A DNA stretch of 64,000 nt, taken from assembly GCA_905178155.1 (NCBI GenBank), contig CAJINV010000001.1, positions 7,905,599-7,969,598 on the forward strand, read 5' to 3'. The DNA is from Amoebophrya sp. A120. Taxonomy: Eukaryota > Protista > Dinoflagellata. Made by a program: the position numbers and the translations under genes. The stretch's first letter is position 1; the number at the start of each line of letters is the position of its first letter. This document shows, in pieces, positions 7,114 through 63,868 of this stretch. A model generated the notes under the pieces. It was not told where the DNA came from. It worked only from the letters and a program-made list of their open reading frames with translations, and did not search any database.

Positions 7114-11447
<4,334 letters not shown>

Positions 11448-12654: not shown

Positions 12655-15600
12655 ATGTCTACGTCAAACCACAATCGGCCCTACGGAGGAGGAAGCTCCC
12701 CTCCCATTCGCCGGCAGCAGAACAACCACCGAAGCAAAAACAATGGCGTGATCAACGTAAAGTTTCAGAGGTCGGGAAAAACCACGGTTTGGGGAGCAGG
12801 TGGTCAACAGCAACACTACGCAGACGGGGCAGGAGGAGAGCATGGTGGCAACGATATCAACAATATGGAGCAGCAGCTGAGTCCATCCGGAAAAAATTCT
12901 AGTAGCAATAACGGAAGCACAAACAGTGTCAACAACATTGCGAACAGCAACCAAGGTGGAAGTACTTCCAATTCATCCGCTGCTGGTAATAATATCACAG
13001 TCTACAGGGGTCAGCAGGGAAAGGGACAGCAGGGCGGTAGCGGTATGGTTCACTATGGCAATGGAATCAATGTTTCATCTATCAAATGTAAAAATGTCTG
13101 GGTCTGGAAGATTCTGAGACTTGTCATGCATGTTTTGCATTGGCCATGATGTCTGTGATGCATGCCCTAGCATCACAGATTTTTTGAGGGCTTCGCGATG
13201 CCTATTCCGCATGACAAATTCCCTCTCCGCGTAGCAAAAATTGCATTCCCTTTGCTGCTCATGCAATACAGATTTTTTTGGAATCCAAATTCAGCATCAC
13301 AAGTCGCAATCTTCCAGACCCAGACATTTTTACTTTTGATATCATCCACGACCTCGGGCGGCTACAACAACTCGCATGGACAGCAGCACGGCCCCTATCA
13401 AATGTAAAAATGTCTGGGTCTGGAAACTTGTAATGCTGGGTGGCGTCTCATGATGAGGCTACAAATGCTGGCTCAGCATGACAAGTTTCTGAGCTCCTAG
13501 GTGTTGCCTCTTCTGCATGACAAACTGCGCTCCTGCATCACAGAAACGCGTAGCTCTTGGGTAACGTGCATGACAGATTTAAGAGTCATGCCAGACAAGC
13601 ATGACAAACATGAAGTCTTCCAGACCCAGACATTTTTACACTTGATAGCCCCCGCGGAGGTACAACGAATCTCGCTGCGCAGGGCCAGCAACAGGTGTCT
13701 TACAAAAGTAACAACTCCAACGCAGGTGGGCAGCAGCAGCACCAGCAGTACGGTGCCAGCACCAACACCTCTCGCGGAGGCGGAGTTCAGCACCAGAACA
13801 TGACCCCGAGTGTGGGAAACGTGCCGCACATCCATCAACGGTCGAAAAACGGAACCAACATGCACGGCCAGCAACAGCACCAGCACGGCTCGTCGTATCA
13901 TGCGACCGGTGGAAATAACGTCGCGACCGGCAATTATCGTGGTAACAACGACCACGAGAATTATCGTATGTCCAACGCGAGTAGCCGAGGAGGCGGCGGG
14001 AACAATCATGTACGCAACGCTGGTCCGCGGAACAACGGTGGAAATAGCAACAATCCGATGAACATGAACCACGCAGCCAATGGTGGGCAACACCAGAACG
14101 CCAGCGGCATATCAAACCAAAACGCCTTCGGAGGACAGCAACAGCATCAGAACCAGCAGCACCAGCCGTTCGTGAACCCCCTGGAGCAGATGTTCAATGC
14201 GAGCAATCTTTTTTCCCATGAACATATGATGAACCAGGTCAATATTCAGACCGGCGGGCCAAACAGTCAGACAGCTCCCGGCCAGCACCACCAACCCGGC
14301 ACCCTGACCGCCAACAACGGGCTCGTCAGCTTCACGCCGGGGGCCCCGGTGGCGGCCGCCGGGGGTGGAGTGGGGAACTCGGCATCGAAATCCGGAATGA
14401 GTGGCGGGGGAACTACAAACCACAACAGCACGTCCGGCGTGACCAACGGAAATAACACTGGTGCAGCGAATGCGAACAGCAACAATCCGAAGACGATGCA
14501 GCAGATGTTGAGCCAGATGCAAAACCAGATGCAAAAGACGGGGTTTCAGTTTCCTTGCAACCTAATGACCCTGATGAACATGAACATTCAGCAGCCCAAC
14601 TCGGGTCAGCAGCAGCCGCAGCAAGTGGGGCCCCAGATAGTAAGCAACAATGCCGCCAACAACAACGCCCACCAGATGACGGCGAATGCCATGCAGAGTC
14701 AGCAGTGGCACTTGCTGTTGAAGGGGATCGAAACGCACTTAGTGGAGCTGTCCTCGAAGTGCAGCATTTGCCCGGACCGCAAACGTATGATGGATCATTT
14801 GTTCCGGCATGCCGTGCGGGCCGAAGTTCAAAACCAACTGCGCTCGCAGCGAACCCAGGAGCCCGCGTTCGTCAGGTGACAAAAGTTGTTTTTGTTTTTT
14901 GATTCTATGTTTTTATTTTCGGGCATTAATTATTGTTTTATTCCCGGAACAGCATGTGCATGCGGGAGGTTCGAGAACCTCTACTTGCGTTCTTCAGTAG
15001 GGTCATCGCATGAGATGAACAACAAGTCGAATCATTGCAGGTTGTTTGGTAGTTGCGTGAATGGGTCCGCTACCAACGACAGCGACTACGATTGTGGGAT
15101 TCGTCTCCCGATCGAGTTGCGGGAGGAGCTCGAGGACGCGGTGGAGCACAGCACTTTCCCCATGCGGGCGAAAACCCACAATTTTCCGTTGATCCTCGCG
15201 TTGCGCCGCTTGATTTCCGGCATGAAGCACCGGGGGTTCAGCTGCCAGTGCATCGAGGAGGCCCGGGTGCCAATCCTGCGCTGCAAGCTTGTGGATAGCA
15301 CGGAGGACAAGGAAGGCGAGGACCCCAAGGACAAGGCGTTGCCGATCTGGACCACACTCCAGCCACCCCCGTTTTCCCCGCCGCCCCCCGCAAAGGTTGA
15401 GGAGGTGGAGGTGGAGGTGGAAGACGATGATAGAGTGGACGTCGACAGCTGCACCAGCAGCGCGTCCAAAGAACAAGGAGGGGCTACGGCATGCAGCGAA
15501 CCTGCGGGAGGTGATGTAATGGAAGTTGAACATCAAAATAGCACGACCGTCACGGTCGCGGACGGGGCTTCTACGGTAGCTGCCCAAATTGGTGTCGCCC

Positions 15601-18600
15601 AGACCGCCGAAATCCAGTTAGATAAAAAGACGATTTCCATCCAACTGTGCCCGCCGGACCTGCTCCCGCCGCCCCCGAGGATGGACCCGCCCGGCATGCT
15701 GGAGCCGCCGGGCCTGGAGCCGCCCGGCATGGACCCGCCGCCGTCGCAGGCGGGCATGGAAATAAGCAGCAGCACTCTCGCCCCGCAGAATGTGATCCGC
15801 GGCAAAGAGCGTCCGCAATCACCGCCACCGCAGCCGCCGCCTGGACTGGAAGGGCTGGAAAACAAGCAGCCGCAGCATACGTTTAATAACGACCAGGTCG
15901 TAGTACACCGCACCAACCAGCAGCCACAGCCTTTTCAACAACAGCGGCCGCCGCCGGCGATTTTGCACACTTCGGCCGGTTTGCCAGTCCTGTCGATCGG
16001 GAATAAGAAAAAGCCCTTGCCACACACAATCCCGATCCCCAGCTCCCCGCCCCCGCCGATGCCCCCGCCACCGCCGGGGCTGCCCCAGCAGTTGCTCGCG
16101 CAACACCACCAGGAACAGCACCAGCAAACGGAGATCGAAATGGTGGTCGAGGAGCATAACGTCACTATCATCGATCCACCGGCCAAGACGGCTGCGTCGA
16201 ACATGCCCCGTAGTACCAGCACCGCGGATCAACATCGCCGAGTCACGTCGGAGGACCTGTTTCTGTCCCTCCCGACGAGTCCCCCGCCGACCATGCCGCC
16301 CCCAAGTGTGCATCAGATGGCTTTGTTACCGCGCAGCACCAGCAGAACCTCGACTGCGGGGGGCGGGAAGTCGTGTAATGGGACGACCACTAGCAAGAAC
16401 CAGAACGGCGGTTGTAACTCCTCCGCGACGAGCAACGTGACCGCTGGTGCGCAGCAAACGTCCACGACCTCGGTTGGCGTGACCACTACCACAACAACCG
16501 TGTCTTCGTCGTCCCAAAAAGAAAGTACAGCAGTAGTTGCAAACAACAGTCTGCTTCCCCCAACTGCGCCGCCGACCGGGCCTCCGGCGCTTCCGACGAT
16601 TTTGCCTCCGCCCTCGCTGCCGTCGACCTTGCCGCCGATGCTGCCGCCGTCGCTGTCCCCACGGCGCAGTCTGTCGATCTGCACTAGCCAAACGGGGGAT
16701 CTTCACGTGCGGTCGCGGAAGTGCACAGAAGCTGGCACTGTTGTTGGAGGCGGGTCCTCGTGTGGAGCTAGTAATGCGGGCGTTCAACCCGCCCTTGAAC
16801 AGAAGCAGCAACCTGAGCCGCCGCCGTTGATGCCGCTGCTGAATATGAGCAGCTTGACTGACCAGACCGGCATGAACAACACGTCCCTGAACATCAGTTG
16901 CGATACGACTGTGGTTGAGAAAGAAAGCAGTTGTAACGAAGACAGTTCATCCGGTGTTGTTGACAAAGCCGCAGACCACATCGGTTCTGGGGCGACGAGC
17001 GCGCAAGTAGTCACCGAGGGCAGCGGTGGAGGTTCTTACCAGCAAAGCAAAACTACGGGTACCACTACCACGTCCGGTGCCGCCGCAACCCTGCCCGAGG
17101 ACATCACGATTCGCGGAAACTACAATTTAGCTACGTTCGACATCAGTGTGGCCACGGAGGATTTTGTCTTTGAGAATTCCCGTTTGCTCCAGCTGTACAC
17201 CGACCTGCAACACCCGTACTTCGGGCAGCTGACGATTCTGATCAAACGGTACTTCAAGCTCGCGGGCTTGTGCGACGCGCACAGCGGGTTCTTATCCTCT
17301 TACAGTCATCAGTTGCTGTTGATCCACTTCCTGCAGCGCCGGCGATTGTTGCCCTACTTGCAGGACCCGGATCTCGTTGCGAAGTGGGAGAATGAGCGCA
17401 AAGACGCCAGGGAGGAGCTGGAGCGGCTGGAAGAGGAGGCCGCGGCCGCTGAGGCGGGAGAAGACAACGACGACGAAGAAGAGGATAGCGATCATAGCAT
17501 CGGGAATAACGGCGCTCCCCACTCGACCTGCGACTCTCCGAAAAAGAAGTCATCCTCCACGAACTTAGAAGTTGTAGTCCTTGGGCAACAGCAGGACAAA
17601 TCCACCTCTGGTGCCGACGACCAACGTGGAATGACTAGTAAAAAGGACCACGACGACCAGAAGAGGATGAACACTTCCGCGAAAAAGAAGCAGGATACGA
17701 CCCCGGACACCGCGTCGACGACGACGAGTCCGGATCAGGTGACTTTGAAGGAGAAAAAACATCACCTACTAGCGCCCTCCTCCCACCACACGACGACGAC
17801 CGCCAGCGGCGCGATTATTTCCGGGGAGCGCGGAGACTGGATGCGGAAAGAGTGGGTGGAGGAGGCGAAATTTGTGGACTGGAAGCTGTTCTGTCCCTGC
17901 GAGGACCCGTTGGACTACTTCCCGGATGTGCAAAAACTGCCCTACGAGGCTGGCGCGGACAAAGGTGGAAACAAGTTCGTGATGCCGGTGTTATACCAGC
18001 TGTTCTGGGACTTTTTGTGCTACTGGGCGCATTTCAAGCCCTTCAAGTTCATGGTCAGCATTCGTCGTCGCATCATGTTCTCGGACTGTACGTATCAGAA
18101 AGAGGAGTGGCACTGCGTGGAGACGGGGAACGTAGTGGGACCAGAAGTACTTCTTGCGGAGAAGAAAAACGCGTTTACTGGGGGCGGGGAGCAGCACAAC
18201 AATAATACCTCCATCTTCGACCAAATTGGCAACAGCACCCTGTACGGTGTGGGACTTTTTCTTTCTCCTGAATTTCAAAAGGTCAAATTTTGTGTTGAAC
18301 GGAAATGTTGAACTTTGCATGGGTAATATTAAAGAGTAGGGAACAAACTCTTGTTCATTCATTTCGACGCATTTCCTTCTCAGCCTGCGACACTGGACTT
18401 GCAGCGAAGTTTTGTAAAGTCGTGCATATAATGCAAATGCGCATAGCTCTGTTGACCTGAATATCTCAGGAGGATTTATTCACTTTCTGCCAGCATACAT
18501 GAAACGAGTCGTCGTCCTTTTTCGACAATGTCTGCGAGTCGAGCCAAGACGATGAGAATTGCAACTCCAGCGTATCCTCCAGTTCTTTTGGCTTGAAGGA

Positions 18601-22003: not shown

Positions 22004-24987
22004 ATGTTGCAGCAGCTCTTCATAGGCGCTGCGAATTTTGTGGCGTCCGGAAAGCGAGGCGGCCGGGGAGATGACCTCTATGATTTCTACAACAGCGTGA
22101 ATCTTCTGATGGGTATCATGCTTCTGCTCTACGGCCTGAAGGGCGCCATCCGGGCGTGGCGCGCATGTTTGAAGTGCCGGATTCTGATGCGCGCCTTCGG
22201 ATTTTTCGCGCTGAAAGACCGGCAGTTGGAGTGGGATAAGAAATCGAAGGAAGAGAAAGCGGCCGCAACCAAAAATTCGGGGTCGTTTTCATCTTCTGCC
22301 GGCGATCTGAATAAAATGGCGGAAACCATCCGGCCGAGCGGCTACGGAGCAACCGGAACAACTACCACCGCGATGAACAGCAACAATTCTACGCGGCGCC
22401 GGGGTAGCACCACGCCGCCGGAGGACCAAATAACACAACAACAAAAAAGCGTAAACACGACCTCCGGCAGAGAAAGTTCCTTCCTGCGCCCCCGTTTGAG
22501 CCAAACGGGCCCGCCGACCGCTGAGGAGAAGGGGCAGTGCCTCCGGTCCATCTTGTCGTACGGCGAACTGCACGTGTCGGAGATGATGGCCGATTTGGAA
22601 GAGGCACCGAGCCACATCTGGCGCGGCTTTTGGCTGTCCGCCTGCGTGCTGTTTGTGTTAGTAAGGTGGCAGGACATGAACTATCTCTCCCGGGAGCTGC
22701 TGGACTTGTCTGCGGGGAGCGCTTTCGGCGCGGTGTTCCTGCCCAGCGTGGTCCTGTTTCGCTACCTGCTGGACGTGTTTCGCGGCTTTCTGCTCGTTTC
22801 CGGCCTCCTGTTTGCGGTGTTCATCCCGCGGGCCCGCAGGAAGGACTACTGGGTGTACGATCTGCCCGAAGACATCACCGACGAGGAGATCGATATTTTG
22901 CTGAAGTCCCGGAACGTGGGCTGGATTTCCGCGGACATCTGGCACGGGTGGGCGGCGGGCATCGCGGTGGCCAACGGCGGGATCAGCATCATCTGCTGGA
23001 TCTTCGATCTGTGGGCTCGCGCGACGATCGGCCTGGAGCCGTACGGGTGGATCGAGAAAAGGCGGGAGGCGTTGAACCTGACCGGCGCACCAGTCACGAC
23101 CGCGTCACTACCGGACGGGCAGATGATATGCAAGAAAAAAACAGTGTAAGTGTAAATTTGTGTTGCAGAACACGCAACAGAGTAGTTACACCTGTCATGC
23201 CAGACAGCCATGAAGCCCTCTTTTCATCTGTGTTGTGCTTTACATGACAGGTTTTCTCTGTCATGTGGGGCAAATGTGTGATGCTGTTCCTCAAAGAAAG
23301 TTACACCTACACACTTTTTTTTCTGGATAGATGACCCCGTTCCAGCAGTACAACCCGGCCACGCAGTGCGCGGGCAAGGTATCAACTGTAAAAATGTCTG
23401 GGTCTGGAAGATTCTGACACTTGTCATGCACGTTTTGCATGAGCCATGATGTCTGTGATGCATACCCTAGCAATACAGATTTTCTAAGGGCTTCGTGATG
23501 CCTATTCCGCATGACAAATGCCTTCTCAGCGTAGCAAAAATTGCATTCCCTTTGCTACTCATGCAATACAGATTTTTTTGGAATCCAAATGCAGCATCAC
23601 AAGTTGCATTCTTCCAGACCCAGACACTTTTGCAATCCATACAAGGCCTGGAAAAGCGATTTCTCCCAGTTCATGAAGTGCGCGCCCTACATGCCGGGGG
23701 AGCGGTTGTACTATTTGTTTCTAGCGGTCCGCGGGGTTCTGTGCGGGATGTTCGTGTGGGCGGTGGTGACGACGAACGCGAAGTTTATGCGGGTGGAGAT
23801 TGGCCAGACGCGGTTCTACCGCGGGCTGCGGGCCGAGGTGGCGATTATTAAGATTATCGCCTGGGAGTCCGCGTTCGTGGCGGTCGGGGCGTGGTACGTG
23901 CCCCAGGGGCTGTACGACTACCTGAACTGGGGCGGCATGGCGCCGCTGCAGATCTTACTCATCCTCTTCACCGCCTGGTACACGGTCTACATGGGGTACT
24001 TCTGCACGTGGTGCCTGCTCGACCTGTTTGTGGACTTCGAGTACATATCCTGTGCAAAAGTATCGTACTCGTAGTAATTGCTATCATGCATGACAAATAT
24101 CCCTTTTTAGGTGAATCAGCATTACAAATTCCATTTTTCTTCCTGAAAAAATTTGTGATGCAATTTATACAACTAATACGATACTTTTGCAATGCATAGT
24201 ACACCGACCGGCGGCTCGCCCAGAAGTTCGACCAGAGCTGGGTCCCCCACGAGAAGGAGTTGGCGGAGGCGCTGCGCTATCAAATGCAAAAATGTCTGGG
24301 TCTGGAAACTTGTAATGCTAAAAGTGAATGATAAACGTACTGCAATACGCAGCTATGCATAACAAATTTTTTTGGCTGCCATGTCTTACGTATTCCGCAT
24401 GGTAAGCTGCGTTTTTGCATGACAGGTCAGAGGGCCTTTCCGTGCCTATGCAACACAGATTCTCGACTCATGCCAGACAAGCATGACAAACTTGCATCCT
24501 TCCAGACCCAGACACTTTTGCATTTGATATGCGCGCGGTGCACGAGACACGCACCGTGCACCCGGAGCGCGGGCAGGCGTTGACAGACTTGTTGGAGCTG
24601 CCGCCGGACGAACTGGAGGTGAACCAGGTGTTGCTGTACAAAAACCGACCGAGCACGATGCCGGCACACGTGTTTCGCACGTCGAACTATGCAAATCTCA
24701 CGGCAGGTGGGTCGTCACCGAACGACACCATGCAACCACCTCTACCCGGGGACGGTACCACAGATGGTGCCGCCGTCGTCAGAGTCTCGTCGCACAAGGC
24801 TAATCGCAACAGATCTGTCGCCTCGACCGCGGCAGGCCCTCCGGGGTCGGTACCCTCGTTCGGCGGGATCGACAGCAGGACAAAGCGGCGGATGCACAAG
24901 GAAAATCCCTGGCTCGACGCTCCACTGATGCACGCGCTCACGCGGGGCGGCATCGATGGATACTCAGCAAGTGAGGAGGAAACGTAG
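22004..24987 (+). CDS. Polytopic membrane protein of unknown function; 5 exons, all 4 introns introner-type
   Basis: Many hydrophobic helices. ORFs 22004, 23541 and 24529 and two short intervening exons join in frame when each element plus one TSD is removed. Confidence 0.75.
23127..23329. mobile_element. Introner/MITE, A-tract TIR family D
   Basis: TATGCAAGAAAAAAACAGTGTAAGTGTAA ... TTACACCTACACACTTTTTTTTCTGGATA; TSD GATGA. Excision gives GQMTPFQQ. Confidence 0.88.
23380..23641. mobile_element. Introner/MITE, family A1 (262 bp)
   Basis: Closely similar to 13080-13341; TSD CAAGG. Excision gives AGKAWKSD. The TSD happens to allow a GT-AG reading. Confidence 0.95.
24046..24198. mobile_element. 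Introner/MITE, family B (153 bp)
   Basis: TATCCTGTGCAAAAGTATCGTA ... TACGATACTTTTGCAATGCATA; TSD GTACA. Excision gives FEYTDRRL. Confidence 0.9.
24278..24529. mobile_element. Introner/MITE, family A2-like (252 bp)
   Basis: Family A TIR; TSD TGCGC. Excision gives EALRAVHE. Confidence 0.93.
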
Positions 24988-25807
24988 TGCTTTTTGTAGA
25001 ACGATTTTTTCGTAGTCGCTGAGCTCATCTTTTACTGTGTTTGTGTATGTAAGATCTTCTGATGTTCATGTTCCTGATTTCAATAATCAAATTGATGAAC
25101 ACGGCTTTTTAACATTGACTACTACATTCTTTTTCTTTCTGACATATGACAGGCTGTTCGATCAGCTTTTCTGAATATCACATATGCTACCTAGCAGGTA
25201 AGCCAGATCGTGGTGCTCTAGCGGAAACTGCGATGAATGTGCTGGTCCTTGCTCTTGGAAAATCTCTATAGAGGCACAGTACTAAGTTTACAACTCAGGA
25301 AGAGATCCACTAGTTACACGATTTTGTTAAAGTGTAGAATTTTTGCACGATTTTGCTGTATTGAGACAAAGAACAAGACACGGCGCAGGGACACGAATTC
25401 ACAGCACTCCCAGGCTGGCTGTCCATTAAATTTGTCGTGTGGAAGTGGTACTTTTCGGAAAGGATGCAAATGCTTCACTCGGTCTCTTATTGAAATCAAA
25501 TGAAGTGCTCCTTGACGCCTAAAAGAAAATCGGCATTTGTGGTGTAACTTCAGTCCTTAAGAAGAAAAATCACATGGTTCAAAATTCGGTGTGCAGAGGC
25601 TGTATCTGTATGATAAACTGAAGATGAGATCGCCTTCAAACAACCAGAAACCAGGTTGGTACCCGCCCCCGTAGTGTAAATGTTTGAGGATCGATTCCCG
25701 CAAATTGTCGCGACAACAAACTAGTTGCGATAAACAGTACAGAGCAAACAGACACTTCCGCACTTAGGAATTCACGGACAGTTGCCGTCCCGTAGAGAAC
25801 AACTACA

Positions 25808-28121
25808 ATGGCGCATCAGGTGATCGTCGACGTGGCGAATTTCGTCGAGACGCCGACGTTTCGGAATGCCGGCAATAGCCAAAAGCAGCTCCTCGCGCGG
25901 AACTTTTACCGGGCTGTGCAAGCCCGATGGGGCGAAAGCGCGCACGTTACGCTCGTGTGCGGCTCTCAGCGCCGGGAGGGGATCGAGAAGTTGTTTCTGA
26001 ATGTCCCCAACTGCGGCCCCACTGCCCGGCAGACCAACGTGGTCCCGGTGCCCGTGGCGGTCGCGGGGCAGAGCCACCAGCACGGCGGCGAGCGAGTGGA
26101 CGAGTTGGTTGTGAAGCGGGCGCTGAAGGCGATGATGCTGGACCCGGAAAACGCGCACAGGGTGGCGATCGTGAGCAATGACCAGTTCCGGGACATGTTT
26201 GCGCGCCCCGCCCTGTCGACCGACACGCGTCTGTACCACATTTTTCAGGAGGCGAAGAGCGAAGCCTCCGCCAGGCGCACCGCGCAGACGTGGCTGGCGA
26301 CCAACGCAGAACTGGAGGTGCTGCTGTTCGACCTCCGGCACGAGTTTGAGATCGACCGGTTTGGGGAGGTCGAGTTTTCCCAAATCAATCCCAGCGGGAA
26401 CAATTTGCTGAAGTTCTTCTGGAGCCAGAGACACGTGGAGCAGGTCAAAGTAGCCACGGATCGGAAGAAGTCGGACCGAATCCTCGAGCTGGAAACGCTG
26501 TTGAAGTACGCCAAGCAGGAAGAGGAGGCCGCGAAGATGGCTCGGCAGCGGATTGTATCAAATGTAAAAATGTCGGGGTCTGCAAGATTGCCAGGTTTGT
26601 CATGCATATTTTGAATGATCCATGATCATGATGTCTGTGATGCATGCCCTAGCATCACAGAATTTTAGAGGACTCTGTGATGCCTCTACCGCATGAGAAA
26701 TACCCTTTCCGCGTAGCAAAAACTGGAGTCCTCTTGCTGGTCACGCAATACAATTTTTTTTAGAATCCAGAGACAGCATTACAAGTTTAGAATCTTCCAG
26801 ACCCAGACATTTTTGCAATCCATAGATTGTGGACGTGTTGCGTCACGAAGTGCGCCGGTACGACAAGCAAAACGGAGGATCTTTGGCAGAAGAGGACGGG
26901 GGCATGCTGAGCGCCGGAAGTGCCGCCGCAGCGGCGCAGCCGAGGCAGGTCGTGATGTCGGCCTCTGTTGACGCAGACAGGAGAGAAAATGATAGCAGCG
27001 CCCGCCTAGGCAGTAAAGACACGACGTCGACGAAAAGCTTAGGCTTACAACTCCCGCCTTTTGTACCGACAACGCGGCTTCTGTCCCACGAGTCGGTATC
27101 GCCAGTCGTAGACGCCGGCTCCAACTCGCCTGGCCCACGAGCAGCGTCCTCCACTCATCAACCTGGTGGCCTTACGCCGCCAAACGGAGTTTTCATTCAG
27201 CCCCCCGCGCAAGGAAGCCGAAGCGCTTTCACGTTGTCTGCCGGTCCGGGTTCGGCAAAAGGCTCGTACGGCGCAAAGCTTTCAGCGCCGGCTAGTGTTG
27301 GGGTTGGAACATCATCGAGCGCCGTTGCTCAATCCGCAGCATCAAGTGCTACTTCCGCAAGGGCGCCAGTGGTAGTTCTTCCAGACGGCGCTGCTGCAAA
27401 GGGTAGTGCCAGTAGCTCAACATCTTCTACTGCGAAAGTGAATTACAATATTTTTTCCACTCCCGCCGGGCCAGGTGCTCCGCGCGTGCTTTCCACCACT
27501 TCCTCCCTGGTGCCGCTAAGTGCGGCCAGGCCCAAGAATTCCGCTACCTCCTCCCTGGTGCCGCTAAGTGCGGCCAGGCCCAAGAAGGGCGTCGGTAAAC
27601 AGGAACTGGATGAGGAGGAGAGAAGAAGAGCTCAGGAGCTGGCTCCTGGCACCAACGGGGCAGGGCCTAGCGCTTCGTCCAGTTCCTCAGCTTCTGATAG
27701 TGATGACGACGATGATGTTCCTCGGCGACCCCGGCCAAAGAACGGGCTTTCCGATTTGCGGCCGGCTTCTCGCGGCCTGCACCCGCGGAGCAGTAGCTCC
27801 GGGAACTCGAGCATCAGCAGTCTCGGCGACGGGCCAGGCGATGACGACCCGAGGCCGCCCCGCGGCGGGGAACGAGCGAGAGTTTTGTCGAACCAAACCC
27901 CGGCCGAGGCAAATACGTGTCTGGTGGCGGGGGAGGTCATGACAGCAAAGCAAATGAAGAAAAAAATGAAAAAGCAAGGAACAGACGAAAGAGGGCGCAG
28001 GCTTGGTCCAGCAGGCGAAACGTGGGATGACGAAGTCTGTTGGGACTGGAAGCACACGGGACGGTGTAAGAGAGGCACGAAGTGTAAATATGCGCACCCT
28101 GATCTGCCGGGGCGGGCGTGA
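25808..28121 (+). CDS. Regnase/MCPIP-like protein: N-terminal PIN-like (Zc3h12a/NYN-type) RNase domain plus C-terminal CCCH zinc finger
   Basis: VIVDVANF ... VDELVV ... AIVSNDQFRD match the Zc3h12a/PRORP-type acidic motifs. C-terminal CWDWKHTGRCKRGTKCKYAH is C-x8-C-x5-C-x3-H. One introner intron. Confidence 0.7.
26556..26824. mobile_element. Introner/MITE, family A1 (269 bp)
   Basis: Family A TIR; TSD GATTG. Excision gives RQRIVDVLRH. Confidence 0.93.
27491..27586 (+). repeat. 48-bp in-frame tandem duplication (SSLVPLSAARPK x2)
   Basis: TCCTCCCTGGTGCCGCTAAGTGCGGCCAGGCCCAAGAA occurs twice with a 48-nt period. Confidence 0.9.
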
Positions 28122-32575: not shown

Positions 32576-35500
32576 ATGGCCGATCCAGAGGTCGTGCAAC
32601 AGCGTGTGTCTGCCGCGACCGCGGCCGATGAATTGGCGGAGGCAGAACTTGCAGCACAGCTGGGCACACTCTCCTCGCCCGCTCCGGCGCTGCCCGCGGA
32701 GGAGGAGATTATTGGGTTTGGCGTCGCCGCGATGCCCCCCCTGCCGGACGAGGAGGACAACGATAACACCGTGAATTTGCTCGAGTCTTCGTACGAATTT
32801 GAGTACGATTCGCAGAAGCAAACGCCCCAGGTTTCTCCGATAATACGCGACCACGATTTGATGTTACAACCCGAAGAGGACCGCATGATAGAACCTTCCG
32901 GCGCTGCGTGGGAGGATGAAATTTACGAAGCACAAGAACTCAGTGACGAGGGGGCAACCAATACAAAAAGGGTAACAGGTCTTGCGACCAAAGGGGACGA
33001 GCAAGCAAGTACTACACCAGGTCGTGGGACGACACGGGCGTCAAGGGCGGCTGGAGGTGCAAGTAGGAGAAGTCAGAACAATTTTGCTGCTGGTGCAAAC
33101 AATGAAATATCAACGCGGAGTAGTAAAAATAGCGGGCGCAGGAGTACGAAAACTAGGTTGAAGTCCTACTACAGTGCGGGTACAGCAGCTACAGCCTCAG
33201 AGAGGGACTCCACGGAGAGTGGGATTGTAATGCTGCAACCGGAGAGGGCCTCCACCGCGATAGCGGAAGTGCTGCACAGCAGTGACGCGGAGAGCGACAC
33301 TGTCCAGCGAATGACGGTCACGCAAGGAAAGGTGGTTCGCATCGCGGAGGCCTACGCTCCGAGCGAGCTCAGTAGCAGTCCCGCGCGGTCCTCGAATGCA
33401 GGAGAGCGGCTGCCGGTGCCGCAGTGGTCGCCGCAAGTGGTAGAGGACGATCAGCAGGAACCGGCAGAAGTTGTATCCCCCCCCTCCCGAAGATTTTCGT
33501 CGCGAAAAGAAACCAGCGTGGCGGTGCCCCTGCCCCTGCCCGCCCCGGTTCCGGATTACCGGGCTTACGAGAAAGCCCGTAAGAGCAGTTACTCATATCA
33601 GGTGGCGTCGCGCATGTCAGCGGAGGAAAAGGTGAGCGTGAGACTCGATAGAGAGGAACCTATGTTCCAGCAAGTGCCTGACGTGCAAACAGCGCACACT
33701 CTGGCCGACCGCGTGTCGCGCTTGTCGCAGAAGGTCCTGTCGCCCGTCGAGAAAAAGGTGCAGCGGCAACTGAAGTCGACGTACGAGGAGACTGTGAAAG
33801 CCGAGAAAGCCGTGCGGAAAAGCGAGGAACTGCGCAAAAGCGAAATGGACCAGCACTTATCAATTGCAAAAATGTCTGGGTCTGGAAGAGTTCATGTTTG
33901 TCATGCTTGTCTGGCATGACTCTTAAATCTGTCATGCACGGCGCCCAAGAGCTCCGTTTTTCTGTGATGCAGAAGCGCAGTTTGTCATGCAGAATAGGCA
34001 ACACCCAGGAACTCAGAAACTTGTCATGCTGAGCCAGCATCTGTAGCCTCATCATGAGACGCCACCTAGCATCACAAGTTTCCAGACCCAGACACTTTTA
34101 CTTTTGATAGCACTACCGGGATTACGACTCGCACGTCAGTGTGTACGACGATCGGGTGAGCGTCGTGGGAGTTTTTCCTGCAGGGAAGGATAACTTCACG
34201 CGCGAAAGCATTTCTCATCAAAATCAAAACGCGACAAGTTCATCCTGCTGCGACATGCTGGCCAGTTGCATCGGCGGCAATGCTGACCACCTTGCGGCAA
34301 GACATAGCCTCGGCGGGGCGAAGCCGAAGAGGCGCGTGTACGTGGATCTGCTTGGGAACGAATCGAAGAAGGAGCCAGGAACCTCGGATGTGTGGATGGA
34401 CCTGACGATGCTGCAGCAAGATACCGGCACTTTTGCTAGTGAAGTGCACGATCTGGATATCGTGGGAAAAAAGTGTTACAGTTACACACTCTGATGGGAG
34501 ACAAGCAAGACAGACAAGCTCTGTCATGCAGGAAATGCTTGCCAACCTGATTTCATTCGTGTTTTCCCTTATAGTCTGCGCATCACAGGTTTTCTTTGCC
34601 ATGTCGAGCAACTTTGTGATGCAGAAACTCCAACAAATGTGTTACTGTAATACTTTTTTCTTGTGATACTGGACGAGCAGGCGAAGCTGCGGAAAGAGCA
34701 GAAGTTGAAAGCGGGGAAAGTGAAGCGGCTGGAGTACGAGCGGCGGGTGGACGAGACGGACATGATGCAGCAAAAGGCCTATCAACTGCAAGTATGTCTG
34801 GGTCTGGAAGGTTGCAACTTGTCATGCAAAATCTTAATCATGCAGAAATCTGTGTTGCATGAGTGCCAAAACCTGTCCACTTTCGAACCAGTCGGGAGGG
34901 AGTTTCTCATGCAGGATAGGCATGACAGGGACGTCGCAGAGTCTGTCATGCTACGTCCCGCATTCCAGGCCTCATGGGTCACGGAAAATCTGCATGAGAA
35001 GTTTACAGGCTTCCAGACACAGACATATTTGCGTTTGATAAGGCCATCCAGAGCCTGACCGGGATAACGGATACCAGCAGCCAGGAGGACGCCATGCACG
35101 CTCTGATGACCATCGCGACCAAAACCAAGGGCCTGCTGCAAAAACAATCCACGCACCACTACGAGGGCTTCGACTACTTCTTCAGGCTCGACCCGCCAGT
35201 GTTGAGGTACTTTTGTATAAAGAAATATACTTACTTGCGATGCTGTATCTGTACTACTTGTTTCATGGATCGAATTACTCAGATTCCACATGCCAACAAA
35301 GTTGTTTCTACATCATGATCCTACATCGTGTTCCCCGCCCCTCGCAGGTACTTCCACGTTTCCCGCAAGCGGGACGAGTGGGTTCTCGATTGGTACCGGG
35401 ACAGAAACGCCGCCGAGGCAGAGCGTGCCGAGGTTTCCGCGACGTTGACGGACGACCGGGGGACGTTGCCATTCGCGATGATGAAGCGGATCAGGAAGGG

Positions 35501-43800: not shown

Positions 43801-46800
43801 TTCAAAACGGAGTACTTCTAGGCCGAAGGCGAGCCGCGTCGACGCGGCGGGGGCTGGCGGAAACCAACCGGTGTCCTCCGTGCAGGGCAAGGGGGTAGCA
43901 GCAGACATCGATTTGAACAATCTAGCACAAGGCAGCGCGCTCCGGGCGGATATGGAACAGGAAGCGGCGCGCAGACGGTACCTCGAGCCTCTTCTGCACG
44001 AGGAGCAGACTGCCGTCGAGGAAAAGGAGCGGAGACTGGGGTAAAGTCATTTTATTTTTCAATCATATGAGATTTTTGTTTGTTGCCTGCGAAGGAACAC
44101 ACATGCTGTTTTTTGCCTGCGCCGTTGCTCAGCTCGTCTCCGTTGCTGAGACAGAAGTAGCTCAGGAGAGCAAGAAAGGTAGTAAGCGAAATGCCTTTTG
44201 TTCAAAATAATCTCGATGCACTACATCTACAACTACACCAGGGAATTACTGGGGTCCGAGTTCGCGCGCAGCTTCTTTGGTTTCGATGCGCCGAGTGTGC
44301 GGGAACTTTCTGCCGTTGCGGTGCGGCGATATTTGACGTTCGTGGACTGCATGCAAAGGGAGTTGGTGGCTAGCTGCCAAATTGAAGAAGAAAGTCCGCC
44401 TAGCGTTGAGTACCTATGCAATGCAGAAAGTGTTGTAGCGGAAATATTCTTTACTAGACGCAAGTAACCACAGCACCGGTCGGTGCATGACGCGTCTGTC
44501 TGCGTTTGTGATTTCTTTGCGCAAAGATCAGATGGTTTCAGTAGATCTCGTACCACCAATGTCTAATAGACAAGGTGCACGAATAAACTTCGTTTCGGAA
44601 AAATAAACATCAAGGGTGGAGGAAGAATCGATGCACTCAAAAACTTTTGCAGGGCATAGATTTCTTCTTACAGCCGGAATCCGGGTGCTAGAGGGCAGCC
44701 GCGGGCCCGGCCCCTGTTGGTGCAAGACGCGATCGCTCCGACCGGCGCGGCTAAGGGAGATCCGGCGTCAGGCTGGCTAGAGAGCGAGGCACACGATCGC
44801 GTGCAATACGCGTCGCTTGATCCGTTTCAAGCGCGGGCGGACTTCGAGCGTCTCGTGGCGGCGGAATGGGCGTCTCTGGGCGACGCCGGCGACTTGCTGA
44901 AGCATCTTCCCGCGCAGTGCTATGTCGAGCCGGGTCTCTCTGCCTCGCCGGACGATCTACGTGAGAATTTTTTGAAGGTGAGGAGAAAGACGTCCTACGG
45001 ATTAGTCAACCGGGCCGACCGTGTCAACGAGGTATCCACTGCAAAAGTATCGTACTCGTATAAATGCAAGTCTTGCAACATTACAAATCTTGTTCCCAAG
45101 GCAAATCAGTATGACAAATTCGTTTTCTCATGCTGAGAAAATGCGATTTATACTAGTGCGTTGCTTTTGCAGTTCATACGAGGCACAGGAGACGAATTTC
45201 GTACTGATCCGGGTTCGGATGCAGTTCCAAATCTGCCCGTCGTGGTTGGCGCAGGACCCGGTGCGACGATTCTGGTGGTTTGGGTCCGTTCCCCTGCTGC
45301 CCGAGGTGCAGGGCGTACTTTCACTGGCGTTGCTGGGTCGCGAGATGGTGCCCAATGGGCTGGTCTTGCTTGCGCGCTACTTCCGATACCTGCCCCTCTC
45401 GGAGATGTATCACCGGGTGGCAAAGTTGGTACAGAGGGACCGAAAGATGTACCCCAAGTATGGGCTTCCGGCCGTGACCGGCCGAGAGGAGTGGGTACAG
45501 GAAGCCGGTGCGGTGGCGGTGCGCCTTGCGCGGCTGGGAAAGCGTCTCGAGGATAAGGGGGGCCTTTTTTTGGCCGACGAGCTGGCGCTGCAGTCGGCAA
45601 TCACTCTGGTGGACTACAATAAAGTGTGTACCGAGGCGGGGGCCGCCGGTTTTCCTGTCACCGATGAGTCAGGAAACAATTATGCGGCTGCGGACCCTAC
45701 TGCGACCTCAGGCAGGACCAGGTACAGCAGCGACACTAATGTGAGAGACGATGCGATGAACAGTGCCGCGGCTTCTTCCCCGTCACAGGAGCGTCGTGTG
45801 CCAGTAGAGGAAGGAGATGCGGACGACCTTCTGGCCAAGTGTTCGACAGTGTACTCCGAATGGATCCGGACCATTTTCTATGAGAGTGCAAAACTCGTTC
45901 TCCCCGTCATCAGCGCTGTTTGCCTGACCACAGTCTGAGGGCCGCCCGCCCAAATAGCACTTCTTCACTCCGCGGGTGGATATGCCATGCAGAAGCAGCA
46001 CAGTCTGTTTATGTCATGCGGAAGCTGTGTGATTCAATCGTTTTTGTTGCTGCTGCTTTTGTTGCTGTAGCAGATAGAACCTACCATGCAATTATAAATG
46101 AAAGGCAGGGGTGGAAATTGTGATCTCTCATACTTTATCAACTGCAAATATGTCTGGGTCTGGAGACTTGTGATGATGAATTGTGGAGGACTGAAATACT
46201 TCCCAATGCAGCCAAGCATGACGAGTTTGCCGCACACTTTCTCATGCGCAGTCGGCATGAGAAACTGCGCTTTTGTCTAATGACATCAAAAGATAAAGAG
46301 GGCGTCTTTTTGCTAGTCATGCAACACAGATTTTACAAGAATGCAGGACTACTAGCATTACAAGTTCCATGCTTCTAGACGTATTTGCAATGCATATATT
46401 TTGGGCAAGAACTTTCCGCGGATTCACAACGCAAACCTGGTTCCCATCCCAGGCACCATGGACCTCCAGATCGTCCTGCAAGTGCAGACGCGAACGCAGG
46501 CCATGGTCACCACCATGGGCTGGAAAGAGGCGTTCGTACGGTTTGCAGATGTGCTGGTTTCCCAACCGGATGCGGATTTTCAGCGGGGTACGGTTTTATC
46601 CGTGGAGCCATCGGGAGAGCGGCTAGCGGTCAGCGGCTCCTGCGACGATGGTGAGGAGGGCGGAGTCCTGCTTGTTGCTCTGCCGTCATTATCGCACAGA
46701 GAATTTTTTTGATTCTTGGACCGCAATACCTACCCCTTTCCGGGACACAGTCTGTTCCCCAGATTTTGTTCTTTTGTACGGAAATTATAGAAGATCGGGT

Positions 46801-49800
46801 AGCTCTTTGCACGTACATTCTGTTTTACTACAAAAACGTGCATTCCGGTGCTGGAATTGAAAGTATGTTCTGATTAGCATTAATAAAAATTCTCTGTGTG
46901 ACATTGCTTCGTTGCGCAAGGCGGTCGGCAGGAAGCGTCCAAAAGGATTGTGCGGATGCGATCGCCCTGCGTGCGGTCACTGCATTGGGAGGCTACCGGT
47001 CTGTTGGTGGAGGATCTCTCAGGCGGGCTTCGAAGTCTGACCCCTCCGGCCGAGAATCCCACGTGCGGGGCGGCAAGTGGCGACCCGTCGGGCGACAGTC
47101 CGCTTTCTGGAAGGCTGGACCAAACAGGGATTTGTTCTGCAGAGCCTGTGCGGTTTCCGGGGGTAGGTCGCCCGCTAGCGGAAGAGGAGGCAGAGGTGAA
47201 TCCGGGCTTGCGGCCCTACCACCGCATTTGGGAGCAGACAGCGACCGCTACGTTTCGCTGCGCTCGTGATTCTAAGTTTACCTGCATCTCCGCCGGAGCT
47301 CGGGTTGCGCAGTTGTATTATCGCATCACGCACTTGAATGACGTTTCCTTTCCCAGCTGGGGCACGGTGCGGATACGGGTGCAAGTTAACGACTGGGCCG
47401 AGATGCAGTGCAACGTTGAGAAACGCGTTTACTGCGATCGCAGTGGGGATGCCAAGAACTTATGCACACGTGTAGAAGAGAGGGCGGAAATGTCGTTTGG
47501 GGACGTGTACGAAACCGGCGTTGGTACTATTACTTCAAATACGAACTCTGATATGTTGAATTTTGTTTAAGTATCGCCCGGAGCTACGCTCAGCAGCTAC
47601 TTTCTGAAACTGAGTCACTCGCACTTGCGTCTGCGCGAGTGGAAAAACCGGGCACGAGCACTGATGTTGGGCAGCACAGGATGAGGTGAATTATATTCCG
47701 ACCCGAGCCAGTCATTTTGCTGGCCATCCATTTCCGTTTGACCGTGCTGCCAGGGCAAGATCGATTGTTTGAGTACTCACAGATTACGAACTATCTCAAC
47801 TTCAGATCTCGACTCGAAAGGCCGATCGTTCGCGTGGCGCGGTCTTCGCGGGGGCTTGATGAGTCGGGTCGACGGGCGGCCGTCCATGCGGCAGCTGAAG
47901 GTGTTCTGGCAGGTGTTTTCGATGCTGGACGCGTGTGGCATGAGGGAGGTGTGCACGGGCGGGTTTGGGCCCGAATGCCCTATGTGGATGTCCCGAGCGT
48001 TGACGGAAACGACGGCGCATCCGCAAGAGCGCGACACGGTGTTCGTCGAGTCGCCGGTGCAGCAGTGCGCCCACCTCGCGGACGTTCGCTCCACGAAGGT
48101 GGTGGATCAACTGGTTGTTGTACCCGGGGACCTCCTGCATATCAGCTGCTACCCCCGTGTATCCACGGCAGATATGTCTGGGTGGGGAATAAGGTTGCGA
48201 AGCAAAAAAATTGCGAATGGTGTGCGCACTGCGATACGCAGCCAAGCGTGACAAGTTTTTGAGCTGCTATGTCTTTTAGTATCGGCATGGAACTACAAAT
48301 TAATAAATTGCGGCTTTGCATGACGGACAAGAGGCGCCTTTCCTGCTCATGCGTCACAGAGTTAAGTAGAGAAAGAGTCTCCTGATGACAGACAAGTAGG
48401 ATGACAAACTTTCACTCTTCCAGACGCAGACAGATTTGCAATGCATACCGTGGCGGCTCCCCGGACGAGAGCAGCGGCAGCACCATAGTGGAGATTCCCG
48501 AAGTCGACTTCGTTCCCGTCGCGGGCGCCGGCGAGGACAGCAAACTCGCCTTCATGTACGAGTATCAAACTTCTACCACAGATAAGCGCACGACCTCGTT
48601 GAAGTCTTCCGCCACGCTGACACTGCAAGGAAAGACGACGACGTTCGCAAAGGCCGCGTCGGACCCGAATGGACTTGGCTTTTGCGAAGAGCAGCCTCCG
48701 GCGTTTGGGGCGCGGGGGCAAGGAAACTACAATCGCGGGACGTCCCGAGAAGGTGCAAGCACCTTCGTACCGCGGCCACGGTGGTCGTCGTACCAGCCCC
48801 GCGATTCCGCGGCCACGGAAATTTCGAACACCGGCGCAGTTCTCGCACAGAAGGAACTTTCACCGGCGTCGGGCGGTGGATTTTCCGCCAGGACAAAGGA
48901 CGACGGGGGCAGCGTATCCTCGTCTTCGTCCCAGGGCCAGAGCCGGCCATCGCGCCTGGTTTTTTTGCGCCCCAGCGAGCAGCCCGCGTGGCGCGAGAAG
49001 CAGCGACCACAAGACCGCATGCACCTGCGAGTGCAGTGCAGCGTACTGGACACCAGCGAGCAGCGCGCGCCACTGCGGCGCATGCTCTCCCAGTCACTGC
49101 TCACCTTTCTCACCATGAAAGACCGCTGCATTCGTCGCCCACCTGCAGAGGAACCTCCCGACCTGCATCGCGGACCCGCTATTCGTATCCCACGCAAAAG
49201 CGTTCTCAGTTGCAGTCGTTTTTTGATGTAAGAGTAGGCAGGGCGAAGGACTTAGCAATCCGAATATAGTACATTCATCGAGACAATAAGAGCCGCAAAG
49301 TGCCAATTTTTGCCATGCATTCGGGCCGTCGTTAGTAGTACATCATGCCTGCGACTGCAGAACTTTTGCAATGTACAAGGTCCTACGTGCAGGCAGCAGA
49401 TACCGGGGAGTACGTGCCCCTTTCTGAGCTGCTGACGGGACAGGGATTGGGGCTAAAGGTCGCCGAGGACCTGATTCGTGCGGACTCCACGCTACTGGAT
49501 TCGAGCGGGGGCAGTCGGGAACGACCCGAGGGAGGACTACTGGATTCCGCCGGCGACGACTCCGGGCTTCCCCCGTTCGGGGGCGGGTTGAAAAGCGTGT
49601 CGCTGTTGCGGCACTACCGACAACAGAAAACCGCGGCGGTGCGCAAGTCGACGTTGCACGGGGTCTTTTCCTTCGCGTTCGAGCAACCGCTGCACGAGCA
49701 GCTGGAGCCCGGGCAGCGGTACACGCTTTCCTGCGAACTCGGTACCCTGCTCCGCAGCACCTTTTCCACAAGGAGCGCGCCGTCGAGCGAGAACGAGGAC

Positions 49801-61744: not shown

Positions 61745-62267
61745 TACGTGTTTCCCTTATTTCTTCTTCTCGCTTTTCGTTTACCCACTGACCCTACCCG
61801 AGTCTCTCGAATTGTAAATGAAGTATGAAGATTTTAGAAGATTCTTTCTCTTTTGGAAAGATGTACATGCTTACCCAACTCCCTTGTACGATTCTGACCT
61901 CGCCGTTTCCGTGAAGTTTTCAGAGAGTTTTGGATGAGCCCTTGACCGCACGATGGTTCCTCGAGTAATTTGCACTTTAGTGCTACGGATTATGTTCTTC
62001 CAGAAATCGTGTCACCTTCGCCTTTGCAAATTTCTATTGAGGGGAGAGCGCACGCGAGAGACAATCGTCGCTGAGTGCCTGTCGACAACGACAACTAGTG
62101 TTGCTAGTCAGTGTCGCCTCGTTATTTTTTGGAACACTCGTGAAGCGCTGACGGCATAAGGCTCGTGAGATCCTTATCGTCGTTTGATTTTCCGTCGGGC
62201 AAAATGACAATGATTTTTTAGTAAGAGAGAAACCCGTCTGTTTTGAATCAATAAACGCGAGTAAACT

Positions 62268-63868
62268 ATGGCAGACGCGGAGGAGCAGCCTCCGGAGGCT
62301 GCCGCTGCTGAGGAGGCTGCGCCTGCCCCGGAAGGCGGTGATGCCCCGCCAGCAGAAGGGGAGGCACCGCCGGCTGAAGGAGAGGCCGCTCCGGCGGCTG
62401 AAGGTGAGACCGCTCCGGCGGCTCCGGCCGAAGGCGATGCGGATGCCGCACCCGCAGAGGGCGCTGCACCGCCGGAGGAAGGAGCTGCCGCACCCGCGGA
62501 GGGCGAGGCCGGTCCCCCAGCTGAGGAAGGTGCAGCCGTTCCGGCAGAGCCGCCAGCAGAAGAAACCGCACCCGCTCCGGCGGCCGAAGCGGTCCCACCA
62601 CCCGTGGTTGAGGAGACCGCGGCACCCGCCGAAGCTGCGCCGGAGCCAGCAGAGGGGGAATCACCCGTGGCGGACGCACAGCTCGCGGTGCCAGAGGAGG
62701 AGGAATATGTGGAGCCAGAAATCGATCTCACACCAGATCTCGAAGCGGCGCTTGCAGACTACCAGGAGCGAATTGAGGGTGAGTGTATCCGCAGTGCCGT
62801 AAAGTTTCGCTCCGGATTTCGCCTTTCAAGAGTTTTCACGATGATTGATCAGGATCATAGTTTGATGTTAGCAGAGAGGACTCTGTGACTTCCCTCTCCC
62901 TCAATGGAGGAGAAGTATGATATGACTGTCTGCATACACGTGTTTCGTACTTCACAGGACTCCACCAGGATAACCTTGCGTTGCAGAAGCGCGTGATCCA
63001 ATTCAAACACGCAACCCAGAAGGGCACGCAGAACGCCGCCGATTTGGAGACGCAGCAGCGAGTTACCGAACACAAATATTTGAACGTCTTGAGTCACGTG
63101 CATCAGGTAAGTTATTTGGAGGAGTCATTCTGCTATTCATTGCTTTCCATTGATTCACAAGAAATAAACAGATGAAGTGCCTCTTCACTCGGAACAGAGT
63201 TCTTACACCGCTCCCCCTACTCCATACCAGATCCGCGTGAAGCTGCGTACGCAGCAAGTGCGCGCCGCCCGGATTTCCGAGGAGCTGCGAGGGCAGCTGG
63301 AGGACAAGCGAGCGAAGGCGATCGAGTGCCGAGAGAGTTTTCGCGACTTCAAGCGACATATCAAATGTAAAAATGTCTGGGTCTGGAAACTTGTGATGCT
63401 GTGTGGCGTATCATGAGGAGGCGACAATTGCTGGCTCAGCATGACAAGTTTCTGAGCTTCTAGGTGTTGCCTATTCTGCATGACAAACTACGTTTCTGCA
63501 TGACAGAAAAGTGGGGCTCTTTGGTAATGTGCATGACAGATTTAAGAGCCATGCCAGACAAGCATGACAAACTTGCATTCTTCCAGACCCAGACATTTTT
63601 ACATTTGATACGACAAGTGGCGAAGAACGCGGAGTATTCCAGGACGGGGAAAAACATACCCGGGAAAATCATAACGGAAATCGAGAAGTTTGAACAAGAG
63701 AAGGAGGGGGAGGTCGAGGAGGTCCGCGGCGCCAACATTAGTCTGAAGAACCGACTGGCGAAACTCGAGCTGCAGCTGAGGAAAAAGGACGAGCTCGCCG
63801 AAAATCTCCACGTCATCGACTTTGAACAGCTCAAAATCGAGAATCAGACGCTCAACGAGAAAATCGAG
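62268..63868 (+). CDS. CCDC96: Ciliary coiled-coil protein CCDC96/CFAP184 (DUF4201); continues beyond window
   Basis: A/E/P-rich N-terminus; KKDELAENLHVIDFEQLKIENQTLNEKIE is the CCDC96 signature. Contains GT-AG introns and one introner. Confidence 0.8.
63359..63610. mobile_element. Introner/MITE, family A2 (252 bp)
   Basis: Perfect 30-bp TIR TATCAAATGTAAAAATGTCTGGGTCTGGAA; TSD CGACA. Excision gives DFKRQVAKNA. Confidence 0.96.

What the first reader, a model, noticed from the sequence alone, without database searches (positions are those of the whole stretch)
13396..63610. The same introner is removed in either orientation
Seen: 33858-34109 is the reverse complement of the 252-bp element at 13396-13647 and 63359-63610. 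Likewise 34780 and 35548 are inverted relative to 13080, 23380 and 26556. All host genes are on the + strand and all junctions restore frame. Inference: no strand-specific donor, branch point or polypyrimidine tract is needed. Only the symmetric TIR, a ~30-bp RNA stem that juxtaposes the two TSD copies, or a protein bound to it can define the cut. Spliceosomal introners normally need one orientation.
Basis: partly seen in the sequence, partly recalled or inferred. Interest (0 to 1): 0.8.

Follow-up and report, generated by a model that had tools for sequence, protein, structure and literature searches.

The report
Two-way introners with fixed cut
These match the already published mini-transposon introns of the marine parasite Amoebophrya; transcript assemblies show copies cut out cleanly whichever way round they sit, likely because their mirror-image ends offer the same short, directional splice cues both ways, not because no such cues are needed.

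Summary
Observation largely confirmed. 33858-34109 is the reverse complement of 13396 (234/252) and 63359 (223/252); 34780 is inverted against the 13080 subfamily, 35548 only weakly. One RNA contig skips all three inverted copies as element plus 5 bases; same-orientation relatives 46136 and 48160 are skipped too. The closest forward copies have no listed RNA joint. In 102 further copies with an inferred host strand, orientation is 51:51.

The inference is only partly right. Interior signals are dispensable, but a terminal inverted repeat reads the same both ways, so cues inside it survive inversion. Either-orientation introners are already published (Polarella, Aureococcus). Decayed copies fix an asymmetric cut, 1 base before and 4 after the element, giving a donor-like N-U-A-Y start; one such intron has no predicted stem. 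Copies with unequal arms put one arm first 32 of 44 times (post hoc, weak).

The elements fit Amoebophrya A120 introners (Farhat 2021). This scan noted the same cut register before on other DNA of this genome. Most likely a loosened spliceosome; a Euglena-like second system is not excluded.

The parts
33858..34109 (.). Introner, 252 bp, inverted relative to 13396/63359; host gene on +; predicted intron 33857-34113
   Evidence: RNA skip of 257 in X1 and X3
34780..35040 (.). Introner, 261 bp, inverted relative to the 13080 subfamily; same host gene
   Evidence: RNA skip of 266 in X1 and X3
35548..35821 (.). Diverged introner, 274 bp, weakly inverted; one mismatch in its 5-bp repeat limits the cut to registers 3-5
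   Evidence: RNA skip of 279 in X1 only
13396..13647 (.). Introner, 252 bp, reference (forward) orientation
   Evidence: removal opens a 604-aa + ORF; no RNA joint listed
63359..63610 (.). Introner, 252 bp, forward, in a CCDC96-like gene
13080..13341 (.). Introner, 262 bp, forward
   Evidence: no RNA joint listed
23380..23641 (.). Introner, 262 bp, forward, unequal arms (TATC arm first)
   Evidence: no RNA joint listed
24278..24529 (.). Introner, 252 bp, forward
   Evidence: no RNA joint listed
26556..26824 (.). Introner, 269 bp, forward, unequal arms
   Evidence: RNA contig piece starting at 26825 fits a skip, other side not shown
48160..48447 (.). Diverged introner, 288 bp, forward
   Evidence: RNA skip of 293 in X1 and X3
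46136..46396 (.). Introner, forward, sitting 3 bases behind another element whose last two bases form part of its target repeat
   Evidence: part of the 525-base RNA skip
45879..46132 (.). Decayed introner of another family, 8-bp terminal repeat; with 46136 needs two removals; limits the register to 4 or less
34458..34668 (.). Introner of another family between the inverted copies
   Evidence: RNA skip of 216; relatives in L026, L027
46690..46903 (.). Decayed introner of another family; limits the register to 4-6
   Evidence: RNA skip of 219 in X1
49185..49381 (+). Non-canonical intron with an unambiguous junction: 1 base + decayed element (49186-49377) + 4 bases
   Evidence: X1, X3
18242..18501 (+). 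GT-TG intron with an unambiguous junction, a normal-looking donor, an introner-like end (ATA then 4 bases) and no predicted end stem; possible hybrid
   Evidence: (X1, X2, X4); no relative found

Best explanation
These are non-autonomous DNA-transposon-like introners whose copies are cut out of the RNA in both orientations, at a fixed cut 1 base before and 4 bases after the element, most likely by a loosened spliceosome that reads short directional cues inside the terminal repeats. Steps: (1) shown: TAT...ATA ends, about 30-bp inverted repeats and 5-bp target repeats, with copies in both orientations; transposase-type insertion is inferred from that anatomy. (2) Shown on DNA with an inferred host strand: about 50:50 orientation. 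(3) Shown in RNA contigs: removal of element plus one repeat, without GT-AG. (4) Deduced from five informative junctions: one register, -1/+4. (5) Inferred: because the ends are mirror images, either orientation offers U-A-U at intron positions +2 to +4, like this genome's ordinary donors, and A-U-A at -7 to -5, which would act as a ruler or branch-like site for an AG-free 3' cut. (6) Inferred: the hairpin helps bring the ends together in young copies, perhaps in place of the undetected U1, but would not be the sole signal.
For: Both orientations skipped in RNA. Register intersection is 4 over eight single-element junctions, and the tandem pair allows 4 or less; 46690 (4-6) and 45879 (4 or less) give 4 even without the two unambiguous introns. 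The inverted 35548 excludes the mirror register 1, so the cut follows the transcript, not the element. The five ordinary donors read GTAT, GTAC, GTAC, GTGC, GTAC, so +2 to +4 match the repeat's start. Introns obeying the register have as few as 0, 6 and 10 of 30 predicted end pairs. No excess of G-U over A-C in the transcribed strand (34:40, 30:32; 55:68, 64:55). Unequal-arm copies put the TATC arm first in 32 of 44, following the arm and not the interior (25:10 and 7:2), while equal-arm copies are 28:32. The first T was changed in the 5' arm alone in 0 and in the 3' arm alone in 4 of 136 copies (p 0.125). U2, U4, U5, U6 and 83 of 89 spliceosomal proteins were found in A120 and U1 was not (PMC7789003 section 10). 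Fritillaria offers a spliceosomal precedent (review PMC11282704 section 6).
Against: Intron positions +1, -1 and -2 look like ordinary exon sequence (+1: A 49, G 48, C 36, T 23), unlike spliceosomal introns as I recall them. A near-perfect 30-pair stem would hide both proposed cues in young copies (28-30 of 30 pairs). The arm bias is post hoc (1 of 16 positions) and falls to 29:12 (p 0.012), 29:16, 22:11 and 16:7 (p 0.07-0.09) without the window's copies; biased insertion could also cause it. The A at -7 is not invariant and a branch-like YTRAY lies in the last ten bases of only 56 of 89 copies. The ends of the 18242 intron were chosen after seeing its junction and it has no relative, so it may not be an introner. 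The register was not shown within one family in both orientations. No lariat, circle or efficiency data. Euglena has a directional code around a stem that is thought to be non-spliceosomal.
Confidence: 0.5

Rival explanations
1. A second, non-spliceosomal system like that of Euglena: a protein recognises the paired ends plus a short directional motif, cuts 1 base above and 4 bases beyond the stem, ligates the exons and releases a circle or linear hairpin.
For: No constraint at +1, -1, -2; fixed offset from the paired ends; young copies fold into near-perfect in-register stems in both orientations; several decayed copies keep a short in-register stem. Euglena code N3CDG...CH'GN5-6|R with circles (PMC12501133 abstract and discussion; review).
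Against: The 18242 intron joins a normal-looking donor to an introner-like end without a stem, whereas hybrids are described as rare in Euglena (one case). The repeat start matches the ordinary donor at +2 to +4. No G-U over A-C excess.
Confidence: 0.3
2. One reading: only the symmetric long stem, or a protein on it, defines the cut; no directional sequence cue is read.
For: 51:51 orientation; interior flips without effect on presence; stems form both ways.
Against: Asymmetric cut in transcript direction; stems of 0-10 pairs suffice in three RNA-shown cases; arm bias (weak); no RNA-level pairing signature.
Confidence: 0.12
3. Each strand carries its own ordinary GT/GC/GA-AG signals, as in Polarella and Aureococcus introners.
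For: 23380 can be read as GT-AG at register 4 and 34780 as GC-AG at register 2; 17 of 89 copies have some such register.
Against: 72 of 89 have none; 33858 and 35548 have none yet are removed exactly; the two unambiguous junctions end in TG and GT.
Confidence: 0.05
4. The copies are not spliced: the RNA runs come from cells whose DNA lacks them (strain polymorphism or DNA excision).
Against: The contig that skips the inverted copies also skips a GT-AG intron; listed exon pieces show 0 other letters; X1's share of words (0.64) equals the exon share (0.644) while X5 holds 0.91; X5 contigs run from flank into repeat at the five forward copies; old decayed elements are skipped too.
Confidence: 0.03

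Closest known systems
Amoebophrya sp. A120 introner elements (Farhat et al. 2021, PMC7789003; read: abstract, passages, sections 10, 11, 12, 16, supplement passages; figures not seen)
   Same: Non-canonical introns with terminal inverted repeats starting TAT, seven variable bases, then A's; 3-5-base direct repeats (5 bp in Fig. S19 legend); about 240-base length; predicted hairpin.
   Different: That paper calls splice sites variable relative to the hairpin and, in the text I could search, gives no orientation analysis ('orientation' passages shown concern gene order; 'strand' 0 hits). Here: both orientations, one -1/+4 register, repeats up to 30 bp rather than 8-20.
Either-orientation introners of Polarella glacialis and Aureococcus anophagefferens (bioRxiv 10.1101/2020.10.14.339549, passages; Huff et al. 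2016 not held, known only through that preprint and the review)
   Same: TIR/TSD elements that create introns in both orientations, with a bias towards one in some classes.
   Different: Those recruit GT/GC/GA and AG sites from the element or a biased target repeat; here the target repeat looks unbiased and no terminal dinucleotide is shared.
Euglena nonconventional introns (PMC12501133, abstract and discussion; review PMC11282704 section 6)
   Same: Non-GT-AG introns of probable MITE origin with complementary end motifs at fixed, unequal distances from the two cuts.
   Different: Motif CAG/CTG at +4/-8 with a purine after the 3' cut, shown by mutagenesis, circles reported; here TAT/ATA at +2/-7, no purine rule seen, products unknown.
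Fritillaria borealis non-canonical introns (through review PMC11282704 section 6; PMC13326754 listing and passages only)
   Same: MITE-derived, TIR- and TSD-bearing introns escaping GT-AG.
   Different: They keep preferred ends (AG-AC, AG-AT) and are attributed to an adapted U2 spliceosome; no preferred ends here.

Membership tests
Amoebophrya A120 introner elements | Inverted repeat starting TAT, seven less conserved bases, then at least three A | tested here: met
   Consensus of both arms in 89 copies against section 11
Amoebophrya A120 introner elements | 3-5-base direct repeat at the boundaries | tested here: met
   128 of 152 perfect 5-bp repeats; 4 of 152 at 4 bp, 0 of 152 at 6 bp
Amoebophrya A120 introner elements | Removed from transcripts with non-GT-AG ends | tested here: met
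   (contigs of runs guessed to be RNA)
Amoebophrya A120 introner elements | Repeated across the genome | tested here: met
   Ten or more copies in the window; 145 further full copies in the 151 loci, up to 98.8% identical to a window copy
Amoebophrya A120 introner elements | Host organism is A120 and the family is among the published ones | tested here: inconclusive
   No genome held; rests on the motif match and on earlier AI notes; family lists not seen
Either-orientation spliceosomal introners (Polarella/Aureococcus type) | Creates introns in both orientations | tested here: met
Either-orientation spliceosomal introners (Polarella/Aureococcus type) | GT/GC/GA donor and AG acceptor from element or target repeat | tested here: not met
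   17 of 89 in any register, 5 of 89 at register 4
U2-type spliceosomal introns | Lariat with a 2'-5' branch; U2/U6 dependence | not testable with these tools
   Contigs only; raw-read runs X7 and X9 held 2 reads each
Euglenid-type nonconventional introns | N3CDG...CH'GN5-6|R code | tested here: not met
   Ends are N-TAT...ATA-N4, read against the published code
Euglenid-type nonconventional introns | Excision as circles without lariat | not testable with these tools
   No raw reads of this organism were found among those laid
Non-autonomous TIR DNA transposon (MITE-like) | Cognate transposase with the same ends | not tested
   No genome held; Farhat reports none in A120, Gozashti 2025 reports TIR families there (passages)

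The most novel reading that the evidence does not exclude
Amoebophrya A120 runs a second, dinucleotide-free splicing route that reads a three-base mirror motif and a ruler (-1/+4), so any transposon with TAT...ATA ends and a 5-bp target repeat becomes a clean intron at any site and in either orientation; it is a non-spliceosomal machine convergent with that of Euglena.
Probability: 0.3. Interest if true: 0.85.

Novelty: new variant of a known kind. Interest (0 to 1): 0.5.

Why it matters
How Amoebophrya removes the more than 60% of its introns that lack GT-AG is an open question. Showing that both orientations are removed confines every required signal to the mirror-image ends; the fixed register then names the few bases to mutate and the two adenosines to test as branch sites. 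It also explains how these elements could spread widely: site and orientation would be nearly free. The orientation point alone is expected from the symmetry and has published precedents, and the register was already noted by this scan elsewhere in the genome, which caps the score.

Tried and rejected
The second lay was swamped by DNA-run joints and gave no listed joint for five forward copies. G-U versus A-C test: null. The loose element finder had 9 hits in a shuffled window against 27 real ones, so its 'other family' set is contaminated; the stricter finder had 0 false hits in 328,351 bases. A +1/-1 association (p 0.004) vanished against background dinucleotides (p 0.21). Pfam named only 1 of 7 exons above cut-off; the exon upstream of 63359 found no CCDC96 chain alone. 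The two viral matches are a 19-base coincidence without a second arm. Huff et al. 2016 was not held. snRNA alignments in Farhat's supplement are figures and could not be read; they bear on whether U6 fits these donors. Searches for a published orientation or mechanism result; none seen for Amoebophrya; subscription journals are mostly missing from the library.
Full report
1. Observation. The repeat search and alignments confirm the core claim. 33858-34109 matches the reverse complement of 13396-13647 at 234 of 252 bases and of 63359-63610 at 223 of 252. After trimming 32 bases from each end the interiors still align only as reverse complements (93% and 87%, z about 30; same direction z about 2). 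34780-35040 is inverted against 13080, 23380 and 26556 (z 12-14 against 4-8). 35548-35821 is a distant member: z 4-7 against those three, 9.3 against 63359. All begin TAT and end ATA, with inverted repeats of about 30 bases; nine of these ten elements have a perfect 5-base direct repeat.

2. Are they removed? Laying contigs of runs guessed to be RNA on 30000-49500 gave skips of 257, 266 and 279 bases at the three inverted copies, each the element plus five, all at the depth of one X1 contig that also skips a GT-AG intron at 35204. X3, the same sample, shows the first two. The forward relatives 48160 (skip 293) and 46136 (within a skip of 525) are removed too. Five GT-AG introns on + and ORFs of 889 and 921 aa put the hosts on +. 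That table showed 15 of 30 joints. On 12500-27500 no joint was listed for the five forward copies; 14 of the 15 joints shown came from the DNA run and 119 were hidden. One X2 piece begins exactly at 26825 with 133 more letters, as a skip of 26556 would give. So the near-identical pair 13396/33858 is shown spliced only in the inverted copy; for 13396 and 63359 the support is an opened 604-aa frame and gap-free colinearity with a CCDC96-family chain (8tek_P 544-572, read by eye). DNA run X5 runs from flank into repeat at all five forward copies and holds 0.91 of the words of 32000-37000, while X1 holds 0.64, the exon share.

3. Orientation count. I called host strand from the flanks alone with a codon model from four RNA-joined window genes. 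Leaving one gene out, 368 of 368 calls with margin 5 or more were right (of 400 exonic sites), 287 of 287 with short flanks, and 15 of 16 same-locus pairs agreed; the check covers exonic sites only. After dropping copies with more than two mismatches in the direct repeat, unclear orientation or a small margin, the count is 51:51 (102 of 145) and 41:38 at a stricter margin (79 of 145). Removing element plus five was the best frame in 73 of 75 informative copies (43 and 30), though the strand call itself assumed plus five. One result leans the other way: both flanks scored as coding in 44 of 48 forward but 31 of 41 inverted copies (p 0.046); flank lengths differ among loci, so I treat it as weak.

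4. What orientation independence does and does not show. The interior is asymmetric and flips (motif 136:53 against 49:127), so interior donors, branch sites or pyrimidine tracts are not needed. The ends do not flip: the first 30 consensus bases are the same at both arms in both groups. Any directional cue inside them is present both ways. Either-orientation introners are in print for Polarella (seven of 15 classes) and Aureococcus (bioRxiv 10.1101/2020.10.14.339549, passages). What differs here is the lack of GT/GC/GA-AG: 17 of 89 copies have such a register at all.

5. The cut register. Perfect direct repeats hide the cut, decayed ones show it. Counting how many of the five repeat bases stay in the upstream exon: 49186 allows only 4, 18243 only 4, 46690 allows 4-6, 35548 allows 3-5, and the tandem pair 45879/46136 allows 4 or less and needs two removals (a single cut would skip 523, not 525). 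The intron is therefore one base, the element, and four bases. The ends of 49186, 46690, 35548 and 45879 are fixed independently by their repeats; those of 18243 were chosen after the junction and it has no relative. The inverted 35548 excludes the mirror register 1, so the cut follows the transcript. I noted this register before consulting the scan's notes, which report it on other DNA of this genome; those notes are not independent evidence.

6. Stem or sequence? Young copies are predicted to pair 25-30 of their 30 end positions both ways, but RNA-shown introns at 18242, 49185 and 45879 have 0, 6 and 10. G-U pairs, which only RNA of the transcribed strand can use, are not more common than their A-C mirror (34:40, 30:32; 55:68). 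At register 4 the intron starts N-U-A-U, and the five ordinary donors have U at +2 (5 of 5), A at +3 (4 of 5) and a pyrimidine at +4 (5 of 5). Among 111 host-oriented copies, 44 have one TATC arm and one TATG arm; the TATC arm comes first in 32 (p 0.004), whichever way the interior lies (25:10, 7:2), while equal-arm copies are 28:32. This was picked from 16 positions and weakens without the window's three copies (29:12, p 0.012; p 0.07-0.09 at three other margins). It is a lead, and biased insertion could explain it. Against a spliceosome, positions +1, -1 and -2 are as free as exon sequence.

7. Mechanism. Best reading (0.5): a loosened spliceosome takes U-A-U at +2 to +4 as a donor remnant and sets the 3' cut four bases behind the terminal A-U-A, with the hairpin as a helper; A120 keeps U2, U4, U5 and U6 and has no detected U1. 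Main rival (0.3): a separate stem-and-motif nuclease and ligase as proposed for Euglena. The strict symmetric-stem reading gets 0.12. Removal and register are shown or deduced; the machine is inferred, and no lariat or circle was observed.

8. Relation to the known. The ends match the A120 motif in Farhat et al. 2021 (section 11), so I file these as that class; the host's identity was not tested directly. That paper describes splice sites as variable relative to the hairpin, and I saw no orientation analysis in its text or supplement passages; its figures were not visible. Seven searches showed no later paper on orientation or mechanism in Amoebophrya, within a library that lacks most subscription journals. 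Papers seen only as passages: PMC12130899, PMC9860276, PMC12005148, PMC13326754, PMC13149111, bioRxiv 10.1101/2022.06.08.495308.

9. Verdict. A real feature of a published class. The two-orientation result holds, is expected from symmetry and has precedents; its value is to confine the code to the ends, where a fixed asymmetric register and a possible arm preference give direct tests. New variant of a known kind; interest 0.5.

Noticed in passing
window 45879-46396: Two introners three bases apart; the second inserted into the last bases of the first, so two removals are needed, like a nested twin intron. Either order gives the observed product.
   Followed up: yes
window 18242-18501: GT-TG intron with an ordinary-looking donor, an introner-like 3' end and no predicted stem; a possible hybrid between the two intron classes.
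   Followed up: partly
window 9868-10146: Introner of another TAT...ATA family with a perfect 5-bp repeat inside an ORF that looks MCM-like (recalled motif, not searched); relatives in L028, L053, L064, L074, L075.
   Followed up: partly
window 23127-23329, 24046-24198, 42660-43074, 20381-20781: Further TAT-type candidates from the loose finder; removing the first two with 23380 and 24278 opens a 598-aa frame. The last two are uncertain.
   Followed up: partly
element interiors, window and L001-L151: A short internal motif (GCAT-S-A-S-A) recurs about four times per copy on both strands, unevenly; possibly a transposase binding site (inference).
   Followed up: partly
window 34458-34668: Five of the six mismatches between its arms are G-U in the transcribed strand (29 of 30 pairs against 24 of 30 on the other strand), the one case that looks like selection for an RNA stem; the pooled test was null.
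   Followed up: partly
window 33890-34067, 34845-34983: RNA-run contigs hold many other copies of the elements with their own flanks, so element sequence is present in those runs as unspliced RNA, excised RNA or DNA; contigs cannot tell which.
   Followed up: no
window 16608-21359: A transcript with a 1163-aa + ORF and a long tail, interrupted only by the 18242 intron.
   Followed up: no
window 27491-27586: 48-base tandem duplication, two copies at 94%.
   Followed up: no
L039: One repeat match on a contig of a different accession series (AUXO01) without a full element.
   Followed up: no
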